Assembly: GCA_964512265.1 (NCBI GenBank)
Contig: CAZEHR010000014.1
Span: 23,765-87,764 of the forward strand
DNA length: 64,000 bases
Reading direction: 5' to 3'
Origin: an uncultured Sphingobium sp.
GTDB taxonomy: Bacteria > Pseudomonadota > Alphaproteobacteria > Sphingomonadales > Sphingomonadaceae
The notes under the pieces are model-generated. The model was not told where the DNA came from. It was given only the letters and a program-made list of their open reading frames with translations, and made no database searches. This document shows, one piece after another, positions 9,081-32,753 of the stretch (position 1 is its first letter; every line of letters begins with the position of its first letter). A program made the position numbers and the translations under genes.

Positions 9081-9165
9081 GATCAGATTCACCTCGGCAC
9101 GCGTGAATCCTCTCCCCACTTTTAGGATGATTTATGCTCTGGCGGCGATTTTTTACAAGTCTGTC

Positions 9166-9337: not shown

Positions 9338-10000
9338 ATGGACCGGCCCGTTCTCATCTCCCCCTCAATTCTCTCGGCGGATTTTGCCCGTCTGGGTGAA
9401 GAAGTGCGCGCAATCGACGCCGCCGGGGCGGACTGGGTGCATGTCGATGTGATGGACGGGCATTTCGTGCCGAACATCACGATCGGTCCGATGGTAGTGA
9501 AGGCGCTGCGCCCCCACACACAAAAATTGATGGACGTGCATCTGATGATCACGCCGGTCGATCCAATGCTTGATGCCTTTGCCGAGGCGGGAAGCGACCT
9601 GATCACCGTGCATCAGGAAGCCGGGCCGCACCTCCACCGCACCATCCAGCGGGTCAAGGCGCTGGGCAAGAAGGCCGGCGTGTCGCTCAATCCTTCCACC
9701 CCGGCAAAGATGCTCGATTATGTGCTGGAAGAGGTTGATCTGGTGCTGGTGATGAGCGTCAACCCGGGTTTTGGCGGGCAAAGCTTCATCGACAGCCAGC
9801 TGCGCAAGATCGAGGCGATCCGCAAGAGCATCGATAAACTGGGCAAGCCCATTCACCTTCAGGTGGATGGCGGGGTCGACCAGAAAACAGCGCCGCGCGT
9901 GATAGCGGCCGGGGCGGATGTGCTGGTGGCCGGCACAGCGACATTCCGTGGCGGGCCGGATGCCTATGCGGCCAATATCAAGGGGCTGCGCGGCGCATGA
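9338..10000 (+). CDS. rpe: Ribulose-phosphate 3-epimerase
   Basis: [39 protein letters not shown]. Confidence 0.97.
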
Positions 10001-11745
10001 ACGACCTGTCCAACCCCTTCTTTCAGAATGACAAGCAGGAAGCGGACGGCATCGAGACCGGCAAGCGCCTCATCCGCCTGTCGAACGACAAGGGCAGTTC
10101 GCTGGCCGAACGGGTCGCCAACCAGTTCTACCGCCTCACTTGGCGTACGCCGCTGCACAATATGCGGCTCAAGGGCAAGTATCCGCTCAAGCTGCTCGCC
10201 GCGCCGCAGGACAAGGTGGCGGGTGATGCGCGTTCTGGCAAGGCGATCCGCGCCGGGCATTTCCTGTTTCGCGGCGCGAAAATGCCGCTGGGCGAAGTCG
10301 ATTTCGCTGCGCCGATGGCCGCGCCATTGGCGGAATATCTGCATGGCTTTCGCTGGCTGCGCGATCTCGCCACCACTGCCACGCGCGAACAGGGTGCGGC
10401 GATTGCCGAGGCGATCACGCGGCGGTGGCTGGCTGCTCATGCCGAAAAGCCGAGCGAGCCTGCCTGGGCGCCGGAAAACGCGGGCTGGCGGCTAATCTTC
10501 TGGGCGTCTTATGCCCCCTATATCCTTTCCAGCAACGATCTTATCTATCGTTCGCTGGTACTGACCTCGTTTGCACGCACCGCCCGTCATCTCGATCGCA
10601 GTGCGGACAAGGCGGCCGTCGGCCTGCCGCGCCTTGTCGGCTGGGGCGGCATCGTCGCTGCGGGGCTGTTGCTGCCCGGCGGCGGCCCGCGCCGCGCTTT
10701 CGCCGAGGCGGGCCTGAAGCGGGCGCTGGAAAGCGCGCTTTACAGCGACGGCGGCATTGTCAGCCGTTCGCCCACCGATCTACTGCGTACGGTCGAGCTG
10801 CTCGGTATGCTCAACACCGCCTATGACGCGGTGCGCGAGGAGGTGCCGAGCTGGCTTACCGAGACGCTGGCGCGCACGGTGGCCGCGTTGCTTGGCATCG
10901 CCCATGGTGACGGCGGGCTAGCGAGCTGGCAAGGAGCTGGTGCGACAGAGGCCACCTATGTCGAGCGCGTGGTGCAGGCGAGTGGGGTGCGCACCCGGCC
11001 GCTACGCCAGGCGCGCGACTGGGGTTATCAGCGTATCGCCGCAGGCGCGACCGTCCTGCTCGTAGATGCCGCTCCGCCTCCCGCCACGCGCATCGCGGGT
11101 GCGGGGTGCGCCTCCACGGGTGCGTTTGAATTGAGCGACGGGCCGGACCGGCTGATCGTGAGCTGTGGCGGTGCAGACCTTTCAGGCGCGCTGATCCCGG
11201 AAGACCTGGCTCAAGGCCTGCGCACCACCGCCGCGCACAGCACGCTGATCCTCGACGAACGCAATTCCACCGCCATCCTTCCGGATGGCACTCTGGGGCG
11301 CGGCGTCACCGAGGTGGAGCTGCACCGGCAGGAGCTGGAAAACGGCAGCCGCATCGAAATCAGTCATGACGGCTATGTGCGCCGCCTGGGCTATATGCAC
11401 CGCCGCCTGTTGCTGCTGAGCAACGACGGCAAGGACGTGCGTGGCGAAGACATGCTGCTGCCTGCGCAGCGGCGCAGGAAGCCGTCGGCAGTGCCCTATG
11501 TACTGCGGTTCCACCTCGCGCCGCATGTCGACGCCTCATTGACGGCAGACGAGCAGGGCGCGCTGCTGCGCATCGACATGGCGGCGCTCTGGCAGTTCCG
11601 CTGTGGCGCGGGCAAGCTTGCTATTGAGGACAGTCTGTGGGTGGATGGCGAGGGCCGCCCGCATGCCAGCAAACAGCTGGTCGTCAACGCAGTGGCTGAG
11701 CCAGGCGGAAGCTCGCTGGGCTGGCTGCTGAAGCGGGTGGGTTAA
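9997..11745 (+). CDS. Heparinase II/III family protein
   Basis: [16 protein letters not shown] motifs; typical alphaproteobacterial rpe-hep-purH order. Confidence 0.75.
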
Positions 11746-13491: not shown

Positions 13492-14790
13492 CTATTTGCA
13501 GGACCAGTCTTTCACCTTGAAGTATGAGGGCGGATAGCTTTCCGCGCCGTTGAGCCAGGCCGCTTCCTTGTCGTCATAGCGATTGACATATTGCCAGACC
13601 ATCCGCCCTGCGCGGTCCACCTGGAACGCGCGGCCCGCATTGGCTTCGGTAATCAGCATGCTCCCGTCGCTGAGCATCTGGTGCAGGCCACGCTGGTTGG
13701 TGAAGAAATGCTGGTCCTTGCGCCCGCCGAAGATGGTCTGCGTTTCGCCGGTTGCAGGGTCGATGGCGATGATGCGGCTGCCCCCGAAACGAGTGCCGTC
13801 CGCCGTGCCGTCCGGGTGATTGTCGAACACCGTAATGCGCCCATCGGTGCCCCAGTCCGGGTCATGCTGGCGGATCCACGGGCCGACGCGGTGCCACTTG
13901 ATCCGTTCCATCTTCGCGTCGGTTACGAGGATCATGTTGAGGTTGCGGATCGAGACGAGCAGATCGCCCGGCGTGAACATCGGGAAGGCATGCGCCAGCG
14001 AGGCAGGCAGCTCCTCGATCTCGTTCAGGTGAAACTCGCCATTGGTCTTGGGGTTGTCGTCCGAGTGCGAGGTCAACGCCGAGAGCATGCCGCTGCGCGC
14101 AAACAGATCGGTGATCGCGCGCTGCCTGATGAGCTTGCCACTGGCGTCATAGACGCGGATTGCATCTTCCCAATAAGGTTCGGTGAATGGCCACTGTTTG
14201 GGCCTTTCGACATAGTCGCTTCCGCCGATGACGATGTGCCCATCCGCCAGTAGATTGGGTGAATGGTGGGTGTTCTCGCGCGTCGCCCAGATCTTTTTGC
14301 CGCAACGGTCGAGCTTGACCATCCCGCAGGATTCGAAAGCGAACAGCACCGATCCGTCCTGGTCGATCAGCACATTATGTGCGGCGCTGTTCCAGTTGGT
14401 CTGCGGCACGTTGCGGCACTGCCCGGCGCTGGGCAGCTGCTCCAGCGGTAACAGGTTCCAGCGCGCCAGCACGGTCCCGTCGCGCCGCATCAGCTGGGCG
14501 TGTTGATCATCGCCGATAAAGCCGGACAGCAGAATGAGATCGTCGCCCGGCGCCTTGTTCACCGTCACGCCCTTGCCCGGATAGCGCGCTGGGACGAGGA
14601 AATGGCTCGGCCGCTTGTGGGTAAGATTGGGCAGTTCCTCGATGAGGATCTTCGCGTCATCATACACGCCGAAGGCCGCCTGCGCGACCGCGTTGTCACT
14701 CCTTGCCGAAAACAGCCCCGCACCGAAAATCACGGCGACCGCCCCCGTCACTGCGCTGGCGTAAAACGCCGCGCGGGAAATATCGACCAT
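13492..14790 (-). CDS. Arylsulfotransferase (ASST)-family periplasmic protein
   Basis: N-terminal TM/signal; HHS, FHLNEIE, LLVSIRNLNMI, WIRQHDP, ITVFDN, MLITEANAGRAF motifs; start MVDISR inferred. Confidence 0.75.
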   Translation of the reverse strand: MVDISRAAFYASAVTGAVAVIFGAGLFSARSDNAVAQAAFGVYDDAKILIEELPNLTHKRPSHFLVPARYPGKGVTVNKAPGDDLILLSGFIGDDQHAQLMRRDGTVLARWNLLPLEQLPSAGQCRNVPQTNWNSAAHNVLIDQDGSVLFAFESCGMVKLDRCGKKIWATRENTHHSPNLLADGHIVIGGSDYVERPKQWPFTEPYWEDAIRVYDASGKLIRQRAITDLFARSGMLSALTSHSDDNPKTNGEFHLNEIEELPASLAHAFPMFTPGDLLVSIRNLNMILVTDAKMERIKWHRVGPWIRQHDPDWGTDGRITVFDNHPDGTADGTRFGGSRIIAIDPATGETQTIFGGRKDQHFFTNQRGLHQMLSDGSMLITEANAGRAFQVDRAGRMVWQYVNRYDDKEAAWLNGAESYPPSYFKVKDWSCK

Positions 14791-14931
14791 AAATACAGCC
14801 CCCATGCATGCCGGTCTTGTGCCCGCCTTCTGGCCGTCCCCGCCGACAGGGGATGATCGGAGATAGGGCTGATCCTGTTCATAGGTGTAAAGCGGCTCAA
14901 TGGTTGGGGCAAGTGTGCTAACCATCTCCTG

Positions 14932-14940
14932 TGGATAAGT
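14932..14940 (-). promoter_or_regulatory. Perfect DnaA box upstream of dnaE
   Basis: TGTGGATAA on + strand = TTATCCACA, 48 bp before the inferred dnaE ATG. Confidence 0.65.
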
Positions 14941-14988
14941 GCCGTAGCAGCCTTGCCCGATCGGGGAGCGTCCACTAGCTTCGCACCT

Positions 14989-17900
14989 ATGCCCGCTGCG
15001 CCTGCCCACGCCCCGTTCGTCCCGCTGCGCATCTTTTCCAGCTATACGATGCTCGATGGCGCGATCGAACCTAAGATCATCGCCAAGCAGGCGAAGAAAC
15101 TTGGCTTTCCTGCCGCAGCCCTGACCGATCGCAACGGGCTTTACGCAGCGATGGCCTTTTCCGACGCCTGCAAGGGTGACGGGGTGCAGCCGATCATCGG
15201 CACGATGCTGTGCGTGGCGCGGCCGGGCCGCCCGCCGGGAGCCGCGCCAGTGTACGACTGGCTGGCGCTCTATGCGCAGGGTACGAAAGGCTATGACAAT
15301 CTTTGCGCTCTCGTCTCGATGGCGCATCTCGACCGGCCGATCGAGGAACAGGCGCATGTCGGCCTCGAGGCGCTGGCGGGATTGACCGACGATCTTCTGT
15401 GCCTCACCGCCGGCGGGGAGGGGGCGCTGGCGCGGCTCTACGCAGAGGATCAGGCGCAGGCCGCCGAGGAATATTGCACGGCGCTCGAAGGACTGTTTCC
15501 CGGCAAGCTTTACATCGAAATCTGCCGCCGGTCAGACGCGGTGGAGGACCGGGCCGAGGCGCAGCTTATCGACCTTGCCTATGCGCGCAATCTGCCACTC
15601 GTCGCCACCAACCCCACCTGCTACGCCGAGCCGGATTTCCACGAGGCGCATGATGTGATGCTCTGCATCGCGGAGGGCGCCTATGTGGAAAGCGCGGACC
15701 GGCGCAGGTCATCCGCCGACGCATGGATGAAGCCCGCGCAGGAGATGCAGCGCCTGTTCGAGGATCTGCCCGAGGCGCTCGCCAATACACTGGTAGTCGC
15801 CCAGCGCTGCGCCGTGATGGCACCCAAGCGCAAGCCGATCCTCCCCAGCCTCGCGGGCGATATCGAGGGCGAGGCGCAGATGCTGCGCGAGATGGCGACG
15901 GCGGGGCTGGAGGCGCGACTGGAGAAGATTGCGGCTCAGTCCCCCTCCCGTTTACGGGAGGGGTTAGGGGTGGGCGAATCCGAACTACCCTCGACACCCA
16001 CCCCTCAGCCCCCTCCCGCAGGCGGTAGGGGGGGCGACTGGCGCCAGCCTTATCTCGAAAGACTCGAGTTCGAACTTTCCATCATCATCCAGATGGGCTT
16101 TCCCGGCTATTTCCTGATCGTCGCGGACTTCATCCAGTGGGCAAAGGCGAACAACATACCCGTGGGGCCGGGGCGCGGCTCGGGCGCGGGCAGCGTCGTT
16201 GCATGGGCGCTTACCATTACCGATCTCGATCCGCTGGAGCTCGGCCTGCTGTTCGAACGCTTCCTCAACCCCGAGCGCGTGTCGATGCCGGACTTTGATA
16301 TCGACTTCTGCGAAACGCGGCGCGGCGAAGTGATCCGCTATGTCCAGCAGAAATATGGCGCGGACCATGTGGCGCAGATCATCACCTTCGGAAAGCTCAA
16401 AGCCCGCGCCGTGCTGAAGGACACCGGCCGCGTGCTGCAAATGAGCTATGGCCAGGTGGATCGTCTCGCCAAGCTGGTGCCCAATCACCCGACCGATCCA
16501 TGGACGCTCGAGCGCACGATGAACGGCAGCCAGGAGTTCGTGGCCGAGGTGAAGGCGGACCGGCAGGTCAAACGCCTCGTCGACCTCGCGATGCAGCTGG
16601 AAGGCCTGCCGCGCCACAGCTCCACGCACGCGGCGGGCGTGGTGATCGGCGACCGGCCGCTGAGCCAGCTCGTGCCGCTTTATCGCGATCCGCGCTCTGA
16701 TATGCCGGTGACGCAGTTCGACATGAAATATGTCGAGGCGGCGGGGCTGGTAAAGTTCGACTTTCTGGGCTTGAAGACGCTTTCGGTGCTTCAGCGCGCG
16801 GTGGAGCTGCTGGCCAGGCGCGGGGTGGTGGTCGCTCTCGCCGCCCTGCCCTGGGATGACGAGGCGGTCTATGACCTGCTCCAGCGCGGCGATACGGTGG
16901 GTGTGTTCCAGCTCGAATCGGAGGGCATGAGGAAGACGCTCGCCGCCGTGAAACCCACCAATTTTGGTGACATCATCGCGCTCGTCTCGCTCTATCGCCC
17001 CGGCCCGATGGACAATATCCCCATGTTCGGCCGACGCAAAAACGGCGCGGAGACGATCGAATATCCGCATGCGCTGCTGGAGCCGATCCTCAAGGAAACA
17101 TACGGCATCTTCGTCTATCAGGAGCAGGTGATGCAGGCCGCGCAGATCCTCGCCGGCTATTCGCTGGGCGACGCGGACCTGCTGCGTCGCGCGATGGGCA
17201 AGAAGATCAAGGCGGAGATGGACGCGCAGCGCGACCGCTTCGTCAAGGGTTGTGCCGAGGCGTCGCAGATCCCCAAGGCCAAGGCGAACGAGCTGTTCGA
17301 CTTGATCGACAAGTTCGCGGGCTACGGCTTCAACAAGAGTCACGCGGCGGCCTATGCGCTGCTCGCCTATCATACCGCCTGGCTCAAGGCGCATCACCCG
17401 GCGGAATTCTACGCCGCATCGATGGCTTACGATATCCACCTTACCGACAAGCTGACGGTGTTCGTGGATGACATGCGGCGCACCGGCCTGGCGTGCCTGC
17501 CGCCGGACATTAACCGGGCGGAGGCGGACTTCACGGTCGAACCGGTGGAGGCGCAAGGCGACGACCCGCGCCTGGCCCATGGCGTGCGCTACGCGCTGGG
17601 CGGCCTCAAGGGCGTAGGCGAAAAGGCGATGGAGCAGCTGGTAGAGGAGCGGGAGCGCAACGGCCCGTTCCTCAGCCTCGATGATTTCGCGGACCGGATC
17701 GAGCCGCGCCTGCTCAACCGCCGCCAGCTTGAAAGTCTGGCCGCTGCCGGAGCGTTCGATGGCATTCATGCCGACCGCGCCGGGGTTCATGCCGCCGCAG
17801 AAACCATCCTTTCGGTCGCTGCCAGCGCGCAGGAGGCGCGGGTCAGCGGGCAGGGCGGCCTGTTCGGCGGCGAGGACACGCCGCACGCGGAGGTGCGCGT

Positions 17901-18594
17901 GCCGCCGCACGAACCTTGGCCCACCGCCACGCGCATGGCGCAGGAGAAGGAGGCGTTCGGCTTTTATTTCTCCGCGCATCCGGTCGATCGCTACGCACAT
18001 ATCGCGCAGGCGCGCGGCGCGCGCAGCTTCGGCGCGATCTGCGCTCAGCCCCCCGCCGCCAACAGCGAAGGCCGCGCCACGTCGATGATGGCCGCTCTGG
18101 TCGAGGATGTGCGCTGGCGCGAGACCAAGCGCGGCGCCCGCTATGTCTCCGCCACGTTTTCGGACAGCAGCGGTCAGTTTCAGGCCAGCTGCTTCGATGA
18201 GGCGAGCTGCAAGAAGATCGCCGATCTCGCGGAAGCGGGGGAGTGCGCGCTGCTGAATGTCGAGCTGGAGCGCATGCCGGGCGAAGAGGTACCGCGCGTC
18301 ACCGTGCGCGGCGCGCAGTCGCTGGCGTCAGCAGCAAGTGGGATGCGCCTCGAACTGTGGATCGATGTTGAAGAGCCGACCCCCGTCGCGCAGATCGCGC
18401 AGATCCTTTCCGGCTGCCGGGGCGGTCGCGGGGAGGTGCGCATCCGGGCGCGCGATGCCCAAGGCAGGATTGCGAGCCTGCGATTGGGCCGGGATTTCCA
18501 GATCGATGCCGAAACCATCGAGCGGCTGCGCGCGCTGCCCGGCGTGGCCGGAGCCCAGATGCCCGCGCGCGAGCCGTTGCGGCTGGTGGGCTAG
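14989..18594 (+). CDS. dnaE: DNA polymerase III alpha subunit, carrying an in-frame repeat-derived insertion
   Basis: PHP domain, GPGRGSGAGS, ERVSMPDFDIDF, KFDFLGLKTL, YGFNKSHAAAY. Confidence 0.98.
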   Translation: MPAAPAHAPFVPLRIFSSYTMLDGAIEPKIIAKQAKKLGFPAAALTDRNGLYAAMAFSDACKGDGVQPIIGTMLCVARPGRPPGAAPVYDWLALYAQGTKGYDNLCALVSMAHLDRPIEEQAHVGLEALAGLTDDLLCLTAGGEGALARLYAEDQAQAAEEYCTALEGLFPGKLYIEICRRSDAVEDRAEAQLIDLAYARNLPLVATNPTCYAEPDFHEAHDVMLCIAEGAYVESADRRRSSADAWMKPAQEMQRLFEDLPEALANTLVVAQRCAVMAPKRKPILPSLAGDIEGEAQMLREMATAGLEARLEKIAAQSPSRLREGLGVGESELPSTPTPQPPPAGGRGGDWRQPYLERLEFELSIIIQMGFPGYFLIVADFIQWAKANNIPVGPGRGSGAGSVVAWALTITDLDPLELGLLFERFLNPERVSMPDFDIDFCETRRGEVIRYVQQKYGADHVAQIITFGKLKARAVLKDTGRVLQMSYGQVDRLAKLVPNHPTDPWTLERTMNGSQEFVAEVKADRQVKRLVDLAMQLEGLPRHSSTHAAGVVIGDRPLSQLVPLYRDPRSDMPVTQFDMKYVEAAGLVKFDFLGLKTLSVLQRAVELLARRGVVVALAALPWDDEAVYDLLQRGDTVGVFQLESEGMRKTLAAVKPTNFGDIIALVSLYRPGPMDNIPMFGRRKNGAETIEYPHALLEPILKETYGIFVYQEQVMQAAQILAGYSLGDADLLRRAMGKKIKAEMDAQRDRFVKGCAEASQIPKAKANELFDLIDKFAGYGFNKSHAAAYALLAYHTAWLKAHHPAEFYAASMAYDIHLTDKLTVFVDDMRRTGLACLPPDINRAEADFTVEPVEAQGDDPRLAHGVRYALGGLKGVGEKAMEQLVEERERNGPFLSLDDFADRIEPRLLNRRQLESLAAAGAFDGIHADRAGVHAAAETILSVAASAQEARVSGQGGLFGGEDTPHAEVRVPPHEPWPTATRMAQEKEAFGFYFSAHPVDRYAHIAQARGARSFGAICAQPPAANSEGRATSMMAALVEDVRWRETKRGARYVSATFSDSSGQFQASCFDEASCKKIADLAEAGECALLNVELERMPGEEVPRVTVRGAQSLASAASGMRLELWIDVEEPTPVAQIAQILSGCRGGRGEVRIRARDAQGRIASLRLGRDFQIDAETIERLRALPGVAGAQMPAREPLRLVG
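15940..16035. repeat. CIR/RPE-like palindromic element inside dnaE
   Basis: Two GC-rich hairpins (CCCCTCCCGT-TT-ACGGGAGGGG and CCCCTCCCGC-AG-GCGGTAGGGG) forming a large inverted repeat around a spacer containing GAATC. Confidence 0.8.
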
Positions 18595-26840: not shown

Positions 26841-28622
26841 TCAAACCATGGCTTTGAACTTGCGGCTCGTGGCCAGCAGCTCGTCGTAGGTCCCCTGTTC
26901 GGCCAGCCCGCCCTTGTCCAGCATGAAGATCTGGTCGCATGGGCGCACGGTCGTCAGCCGGTGGGCGATCATGATAATCGTCTTCTGATGGCTCAAGGCC
27001 TGCACCGATTCCATCACGGCCTTTTCGGTCAGCGTGTCGAGCGCGCTGGTCGCTTCATCGAGCACCAGCACGGAAGGATCGCGATAGAGCGCGCGCGCGA
27101 TGCCGATGCGCTGGCGCTGGCCGCCCGACAGGCGCACGCCGCGCTCGCCCACGCGGGTCTCATAGCCCTTGTCCATGTCGTTGACGATGAAATCATGAAT
27201 TTGCGCCATGCGCGCGCATTCCTCGACCTTCGCCATATCGATCGCAGCGGCAGGAACGCCAAGTGCAATGTTTTCCGCCACGGTGGTATCGGCGAGAAAG
27301 ATCGTCTGGGGAACATAGCCCAGCGCCTGCTGCCAGCTCGGCAGATTATGTTCGTCTATAGCCACGCCGTCCACGAGGATGCGGCCCTCTGACGGGCGCA
27401 ACAGGCCAAGGATGATGTCCACGAGAGTCGTTTTGCCCGCGCCCGTGCCGCCGACAAGACCCACCGAGGTGCCGACGCCAATGCGCAGCGTGATGCCTTC
27501 GATCGCCGTCTTGCGCATATTAGGGTAGGAAAAGCCGATATTGTCCAGCACGATCTCCTGCTGCGGGAGCATCGCCGGGGCGGATGCGGGGCGCGGCTGG
27601 GGTGGCTCGGTCTGCTCGAAGTCATCACGTATGGCGTTGAGCACCGAATCGCCGACCTGCAGGTTGCTGAGGCCGCTGAACACGCGCTGGGCCGAGGGGA
27701 TGAGCTTATAGCCCGCAAGCGCGTAGACGCTGAGGCCCGGCAGCACAAGCGCCGCGCCGCGCCCCGTTGCAAGCAACAGCAGCGCCAGCGTCAGCGCGCC
27801 ACCGATCGCTACTGCCTCGATCAGGTAGCGCGGCGCTTCCGCCAGCGCCTGGCTGATCGCCTGGTGGCGCGCGGCGCGCAGCGATGCGGGGCGGAACTGG
27901 TTAAGATAAACATCTTCCCGGCCCATCAGCTTGATGTCCTTGATACCGCCGATCGCCACCTCGATCGAGGAGAAGCGCTGGTTATTCGCAACCTCCAGAT
28001 CCTGCCCGATGTGCGAGAGCATCTTTTTCGATGCGCGGAAGATCAGCACGTACATCCCGCCGATCACCCCCCCCACGGCCAGCGCGATAAAGGGGTCAAG
28101 CGCCAGCATCACGGCGGTCATCGCGATAACAACCAGCGTATAGGCGATCACATACATGCCCGGCTGGACCACGTAGGAAACGAGCATCTGCGAGTCGGCG
28201 GTAATCTTCTTGGTCAGCTCGCTGCTATGGCGCTGGAGGAAGAAAACATAGGGCTGGCGCAAATAGGTTTCCAGCAGGCGCTCAGCCATCCTGTGCCCGC
28301 TTTTCTGCGCAAACAGGTTCATCAGGAACGTGGTGGCGATGCGGATGATCGCGGCCAGCACCACTATCGCGAAGGCGACAAGACCAAAGGCGAGCAGGAA
28401 GCTGTGATGGTCGGTAAAGCCCAGCCCGTGATAAATAGCGGAGATGGCGGGCTGAATCTCGATCATCTGCGGCCGGCTCAGCACCATGAAGAATGGCAGC
28501 AGCATCGCGATGCCGAAGGTCTCGCTCATCGCCATCAGCACGACCAATATGAGCAGGCGCGCGCCACGCCTTCTGTCCTTGGGCGCGAGCAGCGCCACGG
28601 TGCGGACCATCGTCTTCCACAT
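26841..28622 (-). CDS. ABC exporter (permease + ATPase), PglK/WlaB-like glycan or glycolipid flippase
   Basis: N-terminal TM domain; GGTGAGKTT, LSGGQRQRIGIARALY, DEATSALD, IAHRL. Confidence 0.85.
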   Translation of the reverse strand: MWKTMVRTVALLAPKDRRRGARLLILVVLMAMSETFGIAMLLPFFMVLSRPQMIEIQPAISAIYHGLGFTDHHSFLLAFGLVAFAIVVLAAIIRIATTFLMNLFAQKSGHRMAERLLETYLRQPYVFFLQRHSSELTKKITADSQMLVSYVVQPGMYVIAYTLVVIAMTAVMLALDPFIALAVGGVIGGMYVLIFRASKKMLSHIGQDLEVANNQRFSSIEVAIGGIKDIKLMGREDVYLNQFRPASLRAARHQAISQALAEAPRYLIEAVAIGGALTLALLLLATGRGAALVLPGLSVYALAGYKLIPSAQRVFSGLSNLQVGDSVLNAIRDDFEQTEPPQPRPASAPAMLPQQEIVLDNIGFSYPNMRKTAIEGITLRIGVGTSVGLVGGTGAGKTTLVDIILGLLRPSEGRILVDGVAIDEHNLPSWQQALGYVPQTIFLADTTVAENIALGVPAAAIDMAKVEECARMAQIHDFIVNDMDKGYETRVGERGVRLSGGQRQRIGIARALYRDPSVLVLDEATSALDTLTEKAVMESVQALSHQKTIIMIAHRLTTVRPCDQIFMLDKGGLAEQGTYDELLATSRKFKAMV

Positions 28623-28796
28623 TGCAGACAGTCACTCCATGGGGGCGTTGCTGACCCGTTGGCTTAATATGCTCCCCACAGCACTCAAAGCGCCATTTGG
28701 TGCATATCTGTCAAGACTGTATGCACGATCTCCTGTTGGCAAGTGCGCGTCAACCCGGCATGGAGCGGTAAGGTGCAAGCCGGAGAATGCTGCCGC

Positions 28797-29924
28797 ATGC
28801 GAATAGTGTTTCTCTTCATCGGTGAGGCGCATCAGGCGCTGCACGCGCTGCCCCTCGCGGCGGAGATGCAGGCGCTGGCCCCCGATGTCGAGCTGGAGGT
28901 CGCGGTGGCGAGCGACGCGCACGGCTGGGTGCTGGATCTGGTGCGCAGCGCCTATTCCGGCTTCGCGCCCAAGGTGAAGAAGCTCGCAATCCCGGCCCTT
29001 TCAGCAATTCAGAAGCGGCTCAATGGGGCGGACGACCCGCCGAGGCTGCTCACGTTGCTGCGGCATATCCGCTATTTGCGCGGGTTCGACGCGATCGTGG
29101 TGCCGGAGCGCACGACGACGATCATCCGTCATGTTCTTTCCGATCGCACCCGCCTGATTTTCACGCCGCACGGCGCAGGTGACAAGGCGATCATGCTCGA
29201 TCCGCGCGACCGCTTCTTCGACTTCGTGCTGGTGGCCGGTGAAAAGAGCGAAAAAAGGCTGTTGGAGGCGGGCACGATCACGCCCGGGCGTTATGCCGTC
29301 AACGGCTATGTGAAGCTGGATTTCATGCAGAAGGTGGCGGGGCATCGCCCGCCGCTGTTCGATAACGACCGCCCCACCGTGCTCTATGCGCCGCATTTCC
29401 GGCCGGATCAGTCCTCGTGGGAGACGATGGGCAGGGATATCATCGCGGCGTTCGCGGCGCAGGACCGCTTCAACCTCGTCGTCGCGCCGCATATCCGCCT
29501 GTTTCATCGCGCAAGCAAGGCGACGAAGGCGAAGGTTGAGGCGATGGCAGTGCCGGGCAAGATCATCGTCGATACCGGCTCCAACCGGCTGGTGGACATG
29601 ACCTATACCGGCGGGGCGAACATCTATCTGGGGGACGTCAGCAGCCAGGTGTACGAGTTTCTCGCCACCCCGCGCCCATGCGTGTTCCTCAACGCACACG
29701 GCGCGCACTGGCAGGGCGATCCCAATTTCCTGTTCTGGACGCTGGGGGAAGTGGCGGGAACGGTGCCGACAGCGATGGCCGCGATCGAGCGCGCGGGCTC
29801 CGAGCATCCCCGCTACAGCGCCTTGCAGGCCCAGGCATTGGCATTGTCTGTCGGCGGAGACCCCGCCGGCGCGGCGCGGCGCGGCGCTGAGGCGATCCTG
29901 CACTATCTGCGGCCTTCTGCTTGA
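28797..29924 (+). CDS. CDP-glycerol glycerophosphotransferase (TagB/TagF)-like GT-B protein
   Basis: HGAGDK, VLYAPHFR, GDVSSQVYEFLATPRPCVF resemble TagF LYAPTFR and DYSS..FDF...RP motifs. Confidence 0.6.
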   Translation: MRIVFLFIGEAHQALHALPLAAEMQALAPDVELEVAVASDAHGWVLDLVRSAYSGFAPKVKKLAIPALSAIQKRLNGADDPPRLLTLLRHIRYLRGFDAIVVPERTTTIIRHVLSDRTRLIFTPHGAGDKAIMLDPRDRFFDFVLVAGEKSEKRLLEAGTITPGRYAVNGYVKLDFMQKVAGHRPPLFDNDRPTVLYAPHFRPDQSSWETMGRDIIAAFAAQDRFNLVVAPHIRLFHRASKATKAKVEAMAVPGKIIVDTGSNRLVDMTYTGGANIYLGDVSSQVYEFLATPRPCVFLNAHGAHWQGDPNFLFWTLGEVAGTVPTAMAAIERAGSEHPRYSALQAQALALSVGGDPAGAARRGAEAILHYLRPSA

Positions 29925-29969
29925 GGAAGGCTCTTCTCAAGCGTTGCGGGATGCTTTAGCCGCGAGAGC

Positions 29970-31049
29970 ATGACCAATGATCTCGACATCGGACCGGTGG
30001 CTTTCTCGGGCGAGGGGACTGAGCACGTCTGGGGCATGACTGCGGCCGAACGGGTACGCCGGATGCTGGTGCGCGATGTGCCCGCCGGGGTGGTCATCGC
30101 GCCGGGGCACAGGCTGCACATCAATCAGGATTATGCGTTCGACCCGCTGCTGCTGCGCCTTGCCCTGCGGAAGCCCGGTGTTGCCTTTCACGATGGCGAT
30201 GCGCTGGTGATCGGGCAATTGCCGGAGGATGGCGCACCCGCCGAGCGGGTCGACCTGCGCACATCGCCCGGCTTTTACAACGAGAAGCTGCGCAAGACCG
30301 AGCGACCGTTTGCCATCCGGGTCTCGCCGCAAACGCGCGCGCAGATCGAGAGGGCGAGCTATTTCGGCGCTTATAAGGGCGTGACGGACCTGCTCACCAA
30401 ATATCTCTGGCCCGAACTCGCCTTCCATCTTACCCGCCTCGCCGCCGCATTGAGGATGACGCCCAATATGGTCACCGGCATAGGGGCCATCCTGTGCGTG
30501 CTGGCGACGATCCTGTTCTATCGCGGCGAATATTGGCAGGGGATGGCGGCGGGTTTCGTGTTCATGGTGCTCGATACGGTCGACGGCAAGCTCGCCCGCT
30601 GCACCATCACGTCGAGCAAATGGGGCAATGTGTTCGACCATGGCATCGACCTCGTCCACCCGCCCTTCTGGTGGGCGGCGTGGGGGCTGGGGCTGGCCCA
30701 TGTCGGCCTTGCCCTGCCGGTCGCCACCTTTGCGGCGCTGATGGTGGCGATTGTCGCGGGCTATGTGCTGCAAAGGCTGTGCGAGGGCGTCTTCCTCAAA
30801 TATGCGGGGATGGACATGCATGTCTGGCGGCGGTTCGACAGCTGGTTCCGCCTCATCACCGCGCGCCGCAACCCCAATATGGTGATCCTGCTCGTCAGCC
30901 TGATCGCGGGCAGGCCCGATGTCGGCCTGATCGCGGTGGCATGGTGGACTATCCTTTCGCTGCTAGTGCACATGGGGCAGGTCGTGCAGCTGGTCCAGGC
31001 GCGCAAGGCAGGAAGGCCGATCACCAGCTGGCTGGAGCAACCGCGATGA
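29970..31049 (+). CDS. CDP-alcohol phosphotransferase with soluble N-terminal extension
   Basis: Exact DxxDGxxAR-x8-G-xxx-D-xxx-D motif (DTVDGKLARCTITSSKWGNVFDHGID); TPNMVT. Confidence 0.9.
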   Translation: MTNDLDIGPVAFSGEGTEHVWGMTAAERVRRMLVRDVPAGVVIAPGHRLHINQDYAFDPLLLRLALRKPGVAFHDGDALVIGQLPEDGAPAERVDLRTSPGFYNEKLRKTERPFAIRVSPQTRAQIERASYFGAYKGVTDLLTKYLWPELAFHLTRLAAALRMTPNMVTGIGAILCVLATILFYRGEYWQGMAAGFVFMVLDTVDGKLARCTITSSKWGNVFDHGIDLVHPPFWWAAWGLGLAHVGLALPVATFAALMVAIVAGYVLQRLCEGVFLKYAGMDMHVWRRFDSWFRLITARRNPNMVILLVSLIAGRPDVGLIAVAWWTILSLLVHMGQVVQLVQARKAGRPITSWLEQPR

Positions 31050-31483
31050 ACGAAACGATCCGCAAGTTCGGCTATCCCGCAACCTTGATCGGCGAGACGG
31101 CGCATTGGATCGTGCTGCTCCGCCCGGCGCAGGTGACATTGGGGTCGCTGGTGGTTGCCGCGAAATCGGATGCAACGGCATTCGGCGCCCTGCCGGGGGA
31201 ATGTCACGCCGAGCTGGGCGGGGTATCGCGCCGAGTGGAGGCGATGCTGCAAGCGGCGATATCGTATGAGCGCATCAACTGGCTGATGCTGATGATGGTG
31301 GACCCATATGTCCATTTCCATGTGCTGCCCCGCTATGACGGGGAGCGTCGCCATGGGGCGTTGACTGTGGCGGATGCGGGCTGGCCAGGCCCGCCGGATC
31401 TCAAGTCCGCTGTGGCACTATCGGAGGCGCAGCAGGCCGAGCTGGCGCGGTGGCTGGGCGGGCTTTGGAGCGAGGCGGCGTAA
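31046..31483 (+). CDS. HIT-family hydrolase
   Basis: DPYVHFHVLPRY histidine-triad-like motif; ATGA overlap with the upstream gene. Confidence 0.85.
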   Translation: MNETIRKFGYPATLIGETAHWIVLLRPAQVTLGSLVVAAKSDATAFGALPGECHAELGGVSRRVEAMLQAAISYERINWLMLMMVDPYVHFHVLPRYDGERRHGALTVADAGWPGPPDLKSAVALSEAQQAELARWLGGLWSEAA

Positions 31484-31490
31484 TCGGTAT

Positions 31491-31594
31491 TAGAGCATCG
31501 CGCCAAAAAGTGGGAACCGGTTTTTGGCAAAAGCGATGCGACAACAAAAAGATAGAGCGCGCGTCTTGCGTCAGATTTAACGCAGCGCGCTCTA
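31491..31594. repeat. About 104-bp two-hairpin element, RIME/Bru-RS-like
   Basis: Terminal TAGAGC...GCTCTA; hairpin GCATCGC-GCCAAAAA...TTTTTGGC-GCGATGC; spacer GACAACAAAAAGA; hairpin TAGAGCGCGC...GCGCGCTCTA. Confidence 0.75.
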
Positions 31595-32347
31595 GCGCCA
31601 GCCAGCGGTCAGCTTCTCGGCCACATCGACATCGTTGAGGAAGTCGACCTCGCCCCATTCCATGCCTTCGATGGACAGCGTGCCGACTTTTCCGGTGGAC
31701 GCGAGCTGGTCGATCACCTTGAGATACCAGTTCTGGACCCCGGCGGGCGTACGCATCGCCGCCTCCACCGCATCGCGGAACAGGGCGCCGCCCTCGCCAC
31801 GAAAGGCGAGGAAGCCTATCGATTCGGCATTGCTCTGGGCGGCGGTCAGCGTCTTGCCGATATGGACGAGGCGGTCGCCATCGCGCTCCACCTTCATGTC
31901 GTCGCTGTCGTAATTCGGCTTCACGTCGACCGTTACACAGATGGGCCAGTCCGCACCCTGTTGGACCCGCTCCACAAGGGGTCGGGATACGAGCGTGTCT
32001 CCATTTAATATCAAGTAGTTACCCGTCATCGCTTCCCGCGCGATCCAGCAACTCCCAAGGTTATCCGCTACCTTGAAAAAGGGATTGAAATGTTCCTTCA
32101 AAACCAGCCCCGGCCGCGCCAGCCGCTCCAGCTCCGCCTCCACCGCCTCGGTATGGAAGCCGGTAACGACATGGATTTCGTTGACCCCATTGGCGTGCAG
32201 CGCATCCACCTGCCACGCCAGCAAAGTCTTGCCGGAAAGGCCGATCAGGCATTTAGGCAGATCGGCGGTAAGGGGAAGGAGGCGGGAGCCTTGCCCCGCG
32301 CTCAGGATGATGGCGCGGCGGATCGGGGTGGATGCGGTGCTGGTCAT
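31592..32347 (-). CDS. Phosphocholine-cytidylyltransferase (LicC)-like nucleotidyltransferase
   Basis: AIILSAGQGSRLLPLTADLPKCL, NGDTL, DDMKV, WGEVD. Confidence 0.85.
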   Translation of the reverse strand: MTSTASTPIRRAIILSAGQGSRLLPLTADLPKCLIGLSGKTLLAWQVDALHANGVNEIHVVTGFHTEAVEAELERLARPGLVLKEHFNPFFKVADNLGSCWIAREAMTGNYLILNGDTLVSRPLVERVQQGADWPICVTVDVKPNYDSDDMKVERDGDRLVHIGKTLTAAQSNAESIGFLAFRGEGGALFRDAVEAAMRTPAGVQNWYLKVIDQLASTGKVGTLSIEGMEWGEVDFLNDVDVAEKLTAGWR

Positions 32348-32387
32348 GCGCCCAGATAGAAAAGGAAAGCGCCGCGCGCAAATATTC

Positions 32388-32753
32388 TCAGCAGGCGCGC
32401 GCGTTCATCAGGTGCGCGCCTGCCACTAGCGACACGCCAAGGATGGTGAGCAGCGCCTCGCTGAAGCCATGCGGCACAAACAGCGCCGCTGCCATCAACG
32501 CCAGGCCCGGAACGCCCGCGAGGATCGGCAAAGTGCGCCGGTGCCGTACAAGGCCGCTTCCCAGCGCCACTGCACCGAGCAATGTGGCACACGCCAGGCC
32601 GAATTCATGGATGCGAGGATCAGCAAACAGATGCCCAAGCGAAGTCAGCGTGCCGATCAATATGATGGTCGCCACACAGTGCACGACGCAGAAGCCGGAC
32701 AAAACGATCGCGGCTCGGTCAAGCCAGTAAAAATGGGGAACCCTCGGCTGCAT
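32388..32753 (-). CDS. MerC-domain membrane protein
   Basis: LDRAAIVLSGFCVVHC (CxxHC), four hydrophobic segments, C-terminal AHLMN. Confidence 0.85.
   Translation of the reverse strand: MQPRVPHFYWLDRAAIVLSGFCVVHCVATIILIGTLTSLGHLFADPRIHEFGLACATLLGAVALGSGLVRHRRTLPILAGVPGLALMAAALFVPHGFSEALLTILGVSLVAGAHLMNARAC

What the first reader, a model, noticed from the sequence alone, without database searches (positions are those of the whole stretch)
26841..32347. Candidate CDP-alcohol / polyol-phosphate surface-modification system (teichoic-acid-like or anionic-sphingolipid module)
Seen: five contiguous genes between the conserved mltA-smr block and merC/ctaA. They are an ABC flippase-type exporter (divergent), a TagF-like GT-B protein (LYAPHFR, DVSSQVYEF), a CDP-alcohol phosphotransferase with an intact catalytic motif, a translationally coupled HIT hydrolase, and a convergent LicC-like cytidylyltransferase. 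Established: cytidylyltransferases make CDP-alcohols, TagB/F and CDP-alcohol phosphotransferases transfer the alcohol-phosphate to glycans or lipids, and PglK/WlaB-type ABCs flip lipid-linked glycans. Inference: a complete activate-transfer-export pathway, with HIT recycling or proofreading CDP intermediates. Sphingomonads use glycosphingolipids in place of LPS, so the acceptor could be ceramide or glycosphingolipid. From memory, the Caulobacter ceramide-phosphoglycerate (Cpg) pathway pairs a cytidylyltransferase with a CDP-alcohol phosphotransferase. Alternatively the product is a teichoic-acid-like polymer. The substrate cannot be read from the sequence.
Basis: partly seen in the sequence, partly recalled or inferred. 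Interest (0 to 1): 0.75.

Follow-up and report, generated by a model that had tools for sequence, protein, structure and literature searches.

The report
Anionic sphingolipid headgroup genes (cpgA/cpgD)
Four of these five Sphingobium genes match genes in Caulobacter's sphingolipid locus, two of which add a second phosphoglycerate to a ceramide lipid, so the cluster is a local variant of a published pathway with an unusual exporter next to it, not a new surface system.

Summary
The five genes are real and lie at the stated coordinates. Four are full-length orthologs of genes in the Caulobacter sphingolipid locus. The nucleotidyltransferase matches CpgD/CC_1152, the characterised CTP:phosphoglycerate cytidylyltransferase, at 53% identity. 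All published ligand-contact side chains are kept except one Thr-to-Ser change. The CDP-alcohol phosphotransferase matches CpgA/CC_1159 (43-44%), the HIT protein CC_1157 (46-47%) and the TagF-like protein CC_1167 (38-41%).

The core cpgA-HIT pair (4-bp overlap) with a convergent cpgD is conserved in nine sphingomonad loci. In Sphingopyxis it sits beside a DAG-kinase-family gene (the CpgB family) and a CC_1153 ortholog. A 2024 paper already lists the Sphingomonas wittichii orthologs.

The most likely function is making CDP-glycerate and transferring phosphoglycerate to ceramide phosphoglycerate, giving a CPG2-type anionic sphingolipid. This is only the last step, not a complete pathway.

The ABC exporter is not part of the conserved set. 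It occurs in three loci of one small lineage, and its nearest relatives lie in polysaccharide clusters. A Wzx-like flippase gene that flanks cpgD in relatives is missing here. The roles of the HIT protein, the TagF-like protein and the ABC exporter are inferred only.

Verdict: a new member of a known kind, of modest interest.

The parts
26841..28622 (-). Half-size ABC exporter (transmembrane domain plus ATPase domain) of the PglK/MsbA type. It is a lineage-specific neighbour and a candidate flippase or exporter, not part of the conserved cpg set.
   Evidence: PF00664 plus PF00005. Best NCBIfam matches are PglK at 328 bits (cut-off 1000) and MsbA at 300 bits. There is no counterpart in the Caulobacter locus. 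Next to the cluster it occurs only in the window, L048 (95%) and L045 (79%). The next relatives are Aquisediminimonas (68%, in an rml/DegT cluster) and halophilic Gammaproteobacteria (about 53%, next to wza-wzb-wzc).
28623..28796 (.). Divergent intergenic region between the ABC gene and the TagF-like gene. It has a GGAGA sequence 11 nt upstream of the ATG at 28797.
   Evidence: Sequence read. No sigma-70-like consensus was found in it.
28797..29924 (+). TagF-like GT-B transferase, ortholog of Caulobacter CC_1167. Its enzymatic role is unknown.
   Evidence: 38-41% identity over about 340 aa to the CC_1167 position in Caulobacter loci, E about 1e-70. AF2 model with pLDDT 86.6 has a GT-B fold; TagF 3l7j scores E=1e-11 but ranks below the UDP-GlcNAc 2-epimerases. 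The family profile hits the TagF-like polymerase Cps3D (8qoy) at E=8.7e-4 across the YAPxxR and SSxxYEF motifs. Some homologs carry precomputed PF04464 hits. A 63-64% ortholog overlaps cpgA by 4 bp in Sphingopyxis alaskensis.
29970..31049 (+). cpgA ortholog: a CDP-alcohol phosphotransferase with an N-terminal cytosolic domain. It is inferred to transfer phosphoglycerate from CDP-glycerate to ceramide phosphoglycerate.
   Evidence: 43-44% identity over the full length (residues 1-359) to Caulobacter CC_1159, E about 1e-87. That Caulobacter ORF is anchored by published primers and lies beside spt, DAGK_cat and AMP-binding genes. PF01066 motif intact. AF2 model with pLDDT 84.7 best matches full-length AF2299 (4o6n, TM 0.67/0.71).
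31046..31483 (+). Divergent HIT-family protein, ortholog of Caulobacter CC_1157, translationally coupled to cpgA. Its role is unknown; I infer that it acts on a cytidine-nucleotide intermediate.
   Evidence: 46-47% identity to Caulobacter CC_1157. ATGA overlap with cpgA, and the same 4-bp overlap in L042-L048 and L051. The profile hits HIT protein 2oik at E=7.6e-6 and Fhit at about 1e-3. All 11 orthologs match PF01230 weakly. The motif is YVHFHVLPR: the second and third His are invariant, the first is variable. Three related clusters are fusions to a PF01467 cytidylyltransferase.
31592..32347 (-). cpgD ortholog: CTP:phosphoglycerate cytidylyltransferase, which makes CDP-glycerate.
   Evidence: 53% identity over 233 aa to CpgD of C. 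vibrioides DSM 9893, E=1e-84. Residues equivalent to CpgD G12, R16, K26, N90, N110, G111, D112, M147, K161, S170 and W201 are invariant in 11 orthologs. T93 becomes Ser, which keeps the hydroxyl; T88 becomes Ala, but that is a backbone contact (residue list from PMC13228409). PF00483 and PF12804 hits.
32348..32387 (.). 40-bp junction between cpgD and merC. Related sphingomonads carry a Wzx-like (Polysacc_synt) gene here.
   Evidence: A Polysacc_synt gene lies between cpgD and merC in L044, L045, L046 and L047, and next to cpgD in L042. It is absent here and in L048. tblastn of the L045 protein finds nothing in the whole window.

Best explanation
The block holds the sphingomonad version of the last step of the Caulobacter ceramide-diphosphoglycerate (CPG2) pathway.

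The cpgD ortholog condenses CTP with 2-phosphoglycerate to give CDP-glycerate. This reaction is shown biochemically for the Caulobacter enzyme. It is inferred here from 53% identity and conserved ligand residues.

The cpgA ortholog is a membrane CDP-alcohol phosphotransferase of the AF2299 type. It would transfer phosphoglycerate from that soluble donor to the headgroup of ceramide phosphoglycerate, releasing CMP and giving a doubly anionic sphingolipid for the outer membrane. Genetic evidence supports this in Caulobacter; here it is inferred.

The HIT protein is coupled to cpgA, and the TagF-like transferase lies upstream in the operon. Both are conserved accessory members whose chemistry is unknown. 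My guess is that the HIT protein hydrolyses or transfers the CMP moiety of a CDP intermediate, and that the TagF-like enzyme adds a further phospho-unit.

The divergent ABC exporter is a recent, lineage-specific neighbour. It may flip the finished lipid across the inner membrane in place of the Wzx-like protein that is missing here. That link is the weakest part of the explanation.
For: - Orthology to the Caulobacter locus. The locus was fetched with published primers and its identity checked by primer matches and by spt, DAGK_cat, AMP-binding, epimerase and NTP_transf_3 hits.
- CpgD ligand residues are conserved (PMC13228409, PMC12275187).
- CpgA has an intact motif and the AF2299-like architecture.
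- The cpgA-HIT pair plus convergent cpgD is conserved in Sphingobium, Sphingopyxis and marine or uncultured sphingomonads.
- In Sphingopyxis the triad lies beside an ortholog of CC_1153 and beside genes of the DAG-kinase family (the CpgB family) and the metallophosphoesterase family (CC_1158-like).
- Published tables list Swit_1307/1308/1309 as orthologs of CC_1159/1157/1152 (PMC11324152, S2B Table).
- The TagF-like ortholog is translationally coupled to cpgA in S. alaskensis. Per the paper's gene numbering, it neighbours cpgD in Hyphomonas.
- HIT is fused to a cytidylyltransferase in three related clusters.
Against: - No lipid data exist for any sphingomonad; the product is inferred from Caulobacter.
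- The acceptor-forming genes (cpgB, cpgC) and CC_1153, which is required for CPG2 in Caulobacter, are not in the window. Their presence in this genome could not be checked.
- The authors of PMC11324152 regard CC_1157 (HIT) and CC_1167 (TagF-like) as probably unrelated, and CC_1157 mutants show no strong cofitness.
- The slot upstream of cpgA alternates between the TagF-like gene and a GT4 glycosyltransferase, so the final headgroup may differ between lineages.
- The ABC gene's closest relatives sit in polysaccharide clusters.
Confidence: 0.75

Rival explanations
1. The block is two modules. cpgA-HIT-cpgD modify sphingolipid. The ABC exporter, possibly with the TagF-like gene, belongs to an unrelated ABC-dependent glycopolymer or exopolysaccharide pathway and was brought next to the triad by rearrangement.
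For: ABC orthologs outside this lineage lie in rml/DegT and wza-wzb-wzc clusters. The ABC gene is absent from most sphingomonad cpg loci. IS remnants flank it in L045 and L049. The window's upstream context (mltA-smr) differs from the usual sdhB context.
Against: ABC plus TagF-like plus the triad is kept collinear in three loci at 79-100% identity. The TagF-like gene itself is clearly tied to cpgA in S. alaskensis, in the P0114 contigs and in the Caulobacter locus. No other polysaccharide genes adjoin the ABC gene in the window.
Confidence: 0.3
2. The enzymes do make CDP-glycerate, but they put phosphoglycerate on a different acceptor in sphingomonads, for example a glycosphingolipid sugar or a glycan. 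The product would then not be CPG2.
For: The transferase slot upstream of cpgA is variable: GT4, or either of two TagF-like subfamilies. Sphingomonads are rich in glycosphingolipids (general knowledge; PMC9393093). HAD phosphatase and Wzx genes sit in the same operon in Sphingopyxis.
Against: DAG-kinase-family and CC_1153-like genes adjoin the triad in Sphingopyxis. PMC11324152 predicts CPG and CPG2 in S. wittichii from the ortholog set.
Confidence: 0.15
3. This is a CDP-inositol pathway (IPCT/DIPPS-like) that makes inositol-phosphate lipids.
For: Both enzymes give weak NCBIfam hits to the bifunctional IPCT/DIPPS model and to PIP synthase. PIPS and IPCT-DIPPS structures are among the fold matches.
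Against: The scores are far below the cut-offs (27-52 bits against 170-580). Identity to CpgD is 53%, with the glycerate-contact residues N90, N110, M147, K161 and S170 conserved. No inositol-phosphate synthase gene is in the window.
Confidence: 0.03
4. This is a wall-teichoic-acid-like or phosphocholine (LicC/LicD-type) decoration of a glycan.
For: LicC is the best solved-structure sequence match of the nucleotidyltransferase (E=7e-11). The upstream protein has a TagF-like fold and motifs.
Against: The LicC match covers only residues 11-117. No TagD-type (PF01467) cytidylyltransferase, TagGH-type ABC-2 transporter, TagO/TagA or LicD was found in the window. Every gene except the ABC has an ortholog in the Caulobacter sphingolipid locus.
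Confidence: 0.03

Closest known systems
Caulobacter crescentus CPG2 (ceramide diphosphoglycerate) synthesis genes cpgA (CC_1159/CCNA_01217) and cpgD (CC_1152/CCNA_01210), with locus genes CC_1157 (HIT) and CC_1167 (TagF-like)
   Same: Four of the five genes are full-length orthologs (38-53% identity). CpgD ligand residues are conserved. CpgA has the same N-terminal domain plus PF01066 architecture.
   Different: In Caulobacter these genes are spread across a 17-gene locus with spt, bcerS, cpgB, cpgC, CC_1153 and lptF2/G2. Here they form a compact block away from those genes. The HIT gene is coupled to cpgA here but is not adjacent to it in Caulobacter. An ABC exporter is adjacent here, and no Wzx-like (CC_1166-type) gene is present locally.
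Sphingomonas (Rhizorhabdus) wittichii Swit_1306-1309 and Hyphomonas neptunium HNE_1578-1583 ortholog sets (PMC11324152, S2 Table)
   Same: The same cpgA-HIT-cpgD contiguity. In Hyphomonas the TagF-like gene is next to cpgD.
   Different: Swit_1306 is listed as a CC_1153-like gene upstream of cpgA, whereas the window has the TagF-like gene there. I could not fetch these sequences, so the comparison rests on the published table.
Archaeal AF2299 and IPCT-DIPPS (CDP-alcohol phosphotransferases that use a soluble CDP-alcohol donor)
   Same: Cytosolic N-terminal domain plus a six-helix PF01066 core. AF2299 is the best fold match (TM 0.67-0.71). The same logic applies of a COG1213-type cytidylyltransferase feeding a CDP-alcohol phosphotransferase.
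   Different: About 15% sequence identity. The donor is inferred to be CDP-glycerate, not CDP-inositol, and the acceptor is a lipid. The two enzymes are separate, convergent genes rather than a fusion.
TagF/TagB teichoic-acid glycerophosphotransferases and TagF-like capsule polymerases (PF04464; 3l7i, 8qoy)
   Same: GT-B fold and the YAPxxR / SSxxYEF motif region.
   Different: The window protein does not reach the Pfam threshold. It is a single GT-B unit of 375 aa without the TagF membrane-targeting domain. No CDP-glycerol synthase is nearby. Its donor and acceptor are unknown.
PglK / MsbA lipid-linked oligosaccharide and lipid A flippases
   Same: Half-transporter with the type IV exporter domain order. 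PglK is the best NCBIfam match.
   Different: The score is far below the equivalog cut-offs (328 against 1000). The substrate is unknown. The distribution is patchy, with nearest relatives in gammaproteobacterial polysaccharide clusters.

Membership tests
CpgD (CTP:phosphoglycerate cytidylyltransferase, COG1213 type) | Full-length similarity to the characterised Caulobacter enzyme | tested here: met
   53% identity over 233 aa, E=1e-84, to C. vibrioides DSM 9893 CpgD. That sequence was identified by the published primer sequences at both ends.
CpgD (CTP:phosphoglycerate cytidylyltransferase, COG1213 type) | CTP- and glycerate-contact residues (G12, R16, K26, T88 backbone, N90, T93, N110, G111, D112, M147, K161, S170, W201; PMC13228409) | tested here: met
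   All are conserved in the window protein and in 10 orthologs. T93 is Ser, which keeps the hydroxyl. T88 is Ala, but this is a backbone contact.
CpgD (CTP:phosphoglycerate cytidylyltransferase, COG1213 type) | Enzyme activity: CTP + 2-phosphoglycerate -> CDP-glycerate + PPi | not testable with these tools
   Requires a biochemical assay.
CpgA (CDP-alcohol phosphotransferase for the CPG -> CPG2 step) | PF01066 catalytic motif D-x2-DG-x2-AR-x8-G-x3-D-x3-D | tested here: met
   DTVDGKLARCTITSSKWGNVFDHGID. PF01066 E=1.3e-8. PDB sequence matches to PIPS, CPT1 and AF2299.
CpgA (CDP-alcohol phosphotransferase for the CPG -> CPG2 step) | Orthology to CC_1159, including the N-terminal cytosolic domain | tested here: met
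   43-44% identity over residues 1-359, E about 1e-87, in both directions between the window and the Caulobacter loci. Whole-genome reciprocity is not testable.
CPG2 pathway as a whole | The same genome carries ceramide synthesis genes (spt, bcerS, cerR), cpgB, cpgC and CC_1153 | tested here: inconclusive
   None is in the 64-kb window, and the rest of the genome is not available. In Sphingopyxis, DAGK_cat and CC_1153-like genes adjoin the triad. S. wittichii has all of them per PMC11324152.
CPG2 pathway as a whole | Production of ceramide diphosphoglycerate | not testable with these tools
   Requires lipidomics. No sphingomonad data turned up in the one literature search aimed at this.
TagF/TagB glycerophosphotransferase family (PF04464) | Match to the family model at the curated threshold | tested here: not met
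   No Pfam or NCBIfam hit for the window protein at E<=0.01. Some homologs carry precomputed or faint PF04464 hits.
TagF/TagB glycerophosphotransferase family (PF04464) | GT-B fold with the TagF-type motif region | tested here: inconclusive
   GT-B fold model (pLDDT 86.6). TagF 3l7j scores E=1e-11, but UDP-GlcNAc 2-epimerases rank higher. The profile hits the TagF-like Cps3D at E=8.7e-4. Correspondence of the catalytic His residues was not established.
HIT superfamily (PF01230) | H-x-H-x-H-x-x motif and match to the family model | tested here: inconclusive
   The window has Y-V-H-F-H-V-L: the first His is lost, while the second and third are invariant in the orthologs. PF01230 scores 12.6 bits against a cut-off of 21.5; all 11 orthologs match weakly, best E=7.3e-6. 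The profile hits 2oik at E=7.6e-6 and Fhit at about 1e-3.
PglK / MsbA ABC flippases | Equivalog-level match | tested here: not met
   PglK 328 bits (cut-off 1000) and MsbA 300 bits (cut-off 602). The domain architecture PF00664 plus PF00005 is met.
LicC CTP:phosphocholine cytidylyltransferase | Full-length similarity greater than to other COG1213 enzymes | tested here: not met
   1jyk matches only residues 11-117, E=7e-11, against a full-length E=1e-84 to CpgD.
IPCT/DIPPS (CDP-inositol) system | Equivalog-level match, and an inositol-phosphate synthase nearby | tested here: not met
   27 and 50 bits against a cut-off of 580. No inositol-phosphate synthase gene was found in the window.
Wall teichoic acid pathway (TagD/TagF/TagGH) | TagD-type PF01467 cytidylyltransferase and a TagGH ABC-2 exporter | tested here: not met
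   Neither is present. The cytidylyltransferase is PF00483/PF12804 type and the ABC is a fused type IV exporter.

The most novel reading that the evidence does not exclude
In this small Sphingobium lineage, the TagF-like enzyme would extend the phosphoglycerate headgroup into a short, teichoic-acid-like poly(phosphoglycerate) chain on a ceramide anchor. The acquired PglK-type ABC exporter, rather than the lost Wzx-like flippase, would move the product across the inner membrane. That would be an ABC-dependent route for an anionic sphingolipid polymer in a bacterium without LPS. A weaker version of this reading is that the ABC gene is simply a non-orthologous replacement for the still unidentified inner-membrane sphingolipid flippase.
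Probability: 0.12. Interest if true: 0.7.

Novelty: new member of a known kind. Interest (0 to 1): 0.35.

Why it matters
Sphingomonads have no LPS and rely on sphingolipids for their outer membrane. In Caulobacter, CPG2 supports survival when lipid A is lost, is the inferred colistin target and contributes to virulence on insect larvae (PMC9393093, PMC11324152). Showing that the cpgA-HIT-cpgD module is a conserved operon core in Sphingomonadales extends that pathway to an LPS-free order.

It also raises three testable points that the Caulobacter work left open:
- The HIT protein and the TagF-like protein were dismissed there as probably unrelated. Here they are tightly coupled to cpgA.
- The transferase slot upstream of cpgA varies between a GT4 and a TagF-like gene, which predicts headgroup diversity.
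- A lineage that keeps an ABC exporter but lacks the local Wzx-like gene offers a natural experiment on the unknown inner-membrane flipping step (bioRxiv 10.64898/2026.04.12.717747).

Tried and rejected
- The exact-primer scan of genome contigs for CC_1158 found nothing. The native start codon is TTG, not the ATG of the cloning primer. A wobble-degenerate pattern from the cpgD primer then worked.
- The genome loci are 8-kb blocks and did not reach cpgA. I therefore used the CC_1158 protein to pull 20-kb Caulobacter-type metagenome loci.
- The PDB copy does not hold the CpgD structures, so the comparison used residues listed in the preprint.
- The fold search could not separate TagF from other GT-B enzymes.
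- LicC, IPCT/DIPPS and wall-teichoic-acid readings were considered and rejected (see the membership tests).
- Promoter and terminator consensus scans were uninformative.
- For expression evidence I found only DNA metagenomes and one wastewater metatranscriptome. The latter had low-depth contigs of relatives over parts of cpgA and cpgD, and the peak at 27001-27201 is cross-mapping to the conserved ABC ATPase motif. This is inconclusive.
- Caulobacter cpgB and cpgC queries did not hit the Sphingopyxis loci by tblastn at 1e-4. The published identities are only about 25-39%, so the presence of a cpgB-type gene there rests on Pfam DAGK_cat.
- The Caulobacter ORF I took for CC_1166 had no Pfam hit. 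I therefore did not directly test whether the sphingomonad Wzx-like genes are equivalent to CC_1166.

Full report
**Observation.**
- Pfam confirms an ABC exporter (PF00664 plus PF00005), a CDP-alcohol phosphotransferase (PF01066) and a nucleotidyltransferase (PF00483/PF12804). It also confirms the smr and merC flanks.
- The CDP-alcohol motif is intact: DTVDGKLARCTITSSKWGNVFDHGID.
- The phosphotransferase and the HIT-like ORF overlap by ATGA.
- The quoted motifs LYAPHFR and DVSSQVYEF are present.
- The TagF-like and HIT-like proteins themselves do not reach Pfam thresholds.
- GC content across the block is like that of the flanks.
- The closest genome is Sphingobium sp. DEHP117. It is about 95% identical at protein level and has exactly the same gene order from trpS to ftsH.

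**Literature lead.** The weak NCBIfam hits of both enzymes to IPCT/DIPPS led me to the Caulobacter work. The published assignments are:
- CpgA (CC_1159/CCNA_01217) is a PF01066 protein needed to convert ceramide phosphoglycerate (CPG) to ceramide diphosphoglycerate (CPG2) (PMC9393093).
- CpgD (CC_1152/CCNA_01210) is a COG1213 nucleotidyltransferase shown in vitro to make CDP-glycerate from CTP and phosphoglycerate (PMC12275187). Its ligand contacts are described in PMC13228409.
- CC_1157 is a HIT protein and CC_1167 a TagF-type protein in the same 17-gene locus. The authors regarded both as probably unrelated (PMC11324152, S1 Text).
- The same paper lists Swit_1307, Swit_1308 and Swit_1309 of S. 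wittichii as orthologs of CC_1159, CC_1157 and CC_1152. It lists HNE_1578-1583 of Hyphomonas as a similar group.

**Direct test of orthology.** No tool fetches a protein by accession, so I used the published cloning primers.
- A wobble-degenerate pattern from the cpgD primer retrieved 24 Caulobacter loci, including the type strain C. vibrioides DSM 9893. The ORF there begins MQPVKTLIL and ends QEAEAV, as the primers require.
- The neighbouring CC_1158 protein then retrieved five 20-kb Caulobacter-type metagenome loci. These hold the whole sphingolipid locus: AMP-binding (aasR), epimerase (cerR), aminotransferase (spt), DAGK_cat (cpgB) and NTP_transf_3 (CC_1153). Primer-anchored positions for CC_1159 and CC_1160 support this.

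tblastn in both directions gave the following matches:

| Window protein | Caulobacter ortholog | Identity | Coverage | E-value |
|---|---|---|---|---|
| Nucleotidyltransferase | CpgD (CC_1152) | 52-53% | near full length (about 233-244 of 251 aa) | 1e-84 pairwise |
| CDP-alcohol phosphotransferase | CpgA (CC_1159) | 43-44% | residues 1-359 | about 1e-87 |
| HIT | CC_1157 | 46-47% | full length | about 1e-39 |
| TagF-like | CC_1167 | 38-41% | about 340 aa | about 1e-70 |

The ABC exporter has no counterpart in the Caulobacter locus. Nothing else from that locus is in the window.

**Substrate.** It can be inferred for the cytidylyltransferase.
- The residues that contact CTP in CpgD are G12, R16, K26, the T88 backbone, T93, G111 and D112. 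W201 acts through water molecules that coordinate Mg2+.
- N90 contacts both the CTP ribose and the glycerate moiety. The other glycerate contacts are N110, M147, K161 and S170.
- These are invariant in the window protein and in ten orthologs, with two exceptions. T93 is Ser, which keeps the hydroxyl. T88 is Ala, but that is a backbone contact.
- LicC, the best solved-structure sequence match, aligns only over the N-terminal nucleotide-binding half.

**CpgA architecture.** The AF2 model (pLDDT 84.7) has a beta-rich cytosolic domain of about 120 residues followed by the transmembrane core. It superposes best on full-length AF2299 (TM 0.67/0.71) and then on PIP synthases and IPCT-DIPPS. From general knowledge, IPCT-DIPPS takes a soluble CDP-alcohol donor, which would fit CDP-glycerate here.

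**Synteny.** The cpgA-HIT pair has a 4-bp overlap and cpgD lies convergent. This arrangement is present in every sphingomonad locus I fetched: Sphingobium (L042), two Sphingopyxis (L043, L051), a marine scaffold (L044), three uncultured relatives (L045-L047) and DEHP117 (L048). Three features vary around this core.
- Upstream slot. In L043, L046 and L047 it holds a GT4 glycosyltransferase. In L042 it holds a TagF-like paralog (38% identical). In the window, L045, L048 and S. alaskensis L051 it holds the TagF-like ortholog. In L051 that gene overlaps cpgA by 4 bp inside a Wzx-HAD-TagF-like-cpgA-HIT operon.
- Neighbours in both Sphingopyxis loci. The triad is followed by a CC_1153 ortholog (35-36% identity), a DAGK_cat gene (the cpgB family) and a metallophosphoesterase (CC_1158-like). 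This ties the block to the phosphosphingolipid pathway.
- Downstream of cpgD. A Polysacc_synt (Wzx-like) gene follows cpgD in L042 and L044-L047. The window and DEHP117 have only 40 bp before merC, and no such gene exists anywhere in the window.

**The ABC exporter.**
- It adjoins the cluster only in the window, DEHP117 and L045. L045 has both the ABC and the Wzx-like gene, plus IS remnants upstream.
- Its homolog list drops from 66-68% identity in a handful of proteins, the only named one from the sphingomonad Aquisediminimonas, to about 54% in halophilic Gammaproteobacteria.
- In Aquisediminimonas it sits in an rmlACBD/DegT cluster, with a TagF-like pseudogene fragment 5 kb away. In Halospina it sits beside wza-wzb-wzc.

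The ABC gene is therefore a polysaccharide-cluster type of exporter that arrived in this lineage. Any role in exporting the sphingolipid is an inference from adjacency and from the loss of the local Wzx-like gene. The inner-membrane flippase for bacterial sphingolipids is still unknown (bioRxiv 10.64898/2026.04.12.717747).

**TagF-like protein.** The model (pLDDT 86.6) is a GT-B fold. TagF (3l7j) scores E=1e-11 but ranks behind the UDP-GlcNAc 2-epimerases. The family profile hits only the TagF-like capsule polymerase Cps3D among solved structures (E=8.7e-4), across the YAPxxR and SSxxYEF region. 'TagF-like' is therefore reasonable, but membership at Pfam threshold is not met, and the donor and acceptor are unknown.

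**HIT protein.**
- The ortholog profile hits HIT protein 2oik (E=7.6e-6) and Fhit. All 11 orthologs match PF01230 weakly.
- The motif is x-V-H-F-H-V-L-P-R. The second and third histidines are invariant; from general knowledge of Fhit and Hint, these are the nucleophile and the general acid. The first histidine is variable and is Tyr in the window.
- The subfamily is small: 715 clusters at E<=1e-3 among 1.84 billion representatives.
- Three of the best 150 clusters are fusions to a PF01467 (TagD-type) cytidylyltransferase.

Together with the invariant coupling to cpgA, this argues that the HIT protein acts on a cytidine-nucleotide intermediate. Whether it hydrolyses or transfers is not known. 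Published Caulobacter cofitness does not link CC_1157 to the pathway.

**Conclusion.** The block is a compact sphingomonad copy of the CPG-to-CPG2 step of a published pathway, with two conserved accessory genes of unknown chemistry and a lineage-specific ABC neighbour. It is not a complete pathway and not a teichoic-acid system. The core is already described in the literature for S. wittichii. What is specific here is the ABC plus TagF-like arrangement without a local Wzx-like gene.

Shown by sequence: orthology, motif and ligand-residue conservation, and synteny. Inferred: the product, the roles of the HIT and TagF-like proteins, and any role of the ABC exporter.

Noticed in passing
window 32348-32387: Only 40 bp separate cpgD and merC. 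Five related sphingomonad loci carry a Wzx-like Polysacc_synt gene next to cpgD, in four of them between cpgD and merC. DEHP117 shares the loss, while L045 keeps both the Wzx-like gene and the ABC exporter.
   Followed up: yes
L051 4750-15068 (Sphingopyxis alaskensis): Nearly the whole phosphosphingolipid headgroup set lies in one place. A Wzx-HAD-TagF-like-cpgA-HIT operon has overlapping genes. It is followed by convergent cpgD, a CC_1153-like gene and an esterase, then DAGK_cat, a metallophosphoesterase and a 363-aa protein with no Pfam hit.
   Followed up: partly
P0403, P0501, P0407/P0512 (relatives of window 31046-31483): Members of this small HIT subfamily are fused to a TagD-type (PF01467) cytidylyltransferase domain. 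A 136-aa member of the P0407 cluster, from a Candidatus Peregrinibacteria MAG, is annotated as glycerol-3-phosphate cytidylyltransferase.
   Followed up: partly
L049 1583-2037 (Aquisediminimonas sediminicola): A TagF-like pseudogene fragment (53% identity to window residues 100-258) lies beside an IS remnant. It is 5 kb from the 68% ortholog of the window's ABC exporter, inside an rml/DegT sugar cluster.
   Followed up: no
L004 7037-7936 and 6541-7047 (Caulobacterales): The native start codon of CC_1158 is TTG, not the ATG of the published cloning primer. A 168-aa ORF with a hydrophobic, signal-peptide-like N-terminus lies on the opposite strand between CC_1158 and the HIT gene.
   Followed up: no
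window 8025-9119 (-): This ORF has an MCP signalling-domain match (aa 31-104) before a dCache match (aa 112-298), which is the reverse of the usual chemoreceptor order. It may be a rearranged or miscalled gene.
   Followed up: no
window 15985-18000 (-) and 14953-18594 (+): A 671-aa ORF with no Pfam hit is overlapped by a 1213-aa ORF on the other strand. Which one is real, and what it encodes, is unknown.
   Followed up: no
window 9997-11745 (+) and 13492-15357 (-): Heparinase II/III-like and arylsulfotransferase-like genes flank purH. Both are glycan- or sulfate-related and are unrelated to the finding.
   Followed up: no
window 58214-60028 (-): sdhA lies 26 kb downstream of the cluster. In most sphingomonad loci the cpg triad directly follows sdhB, so this lineage has a rearranged context: mltA-smr lies upstream instead.
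   Followed up: partly
window 28700-32400: Four bioreactor metagenome runs of one study hold this stretch completely (all sampled words). Only low-depth metatranscriptome contigs of relatives cover parts of cpgA and cpgD.
   Followed up: partly
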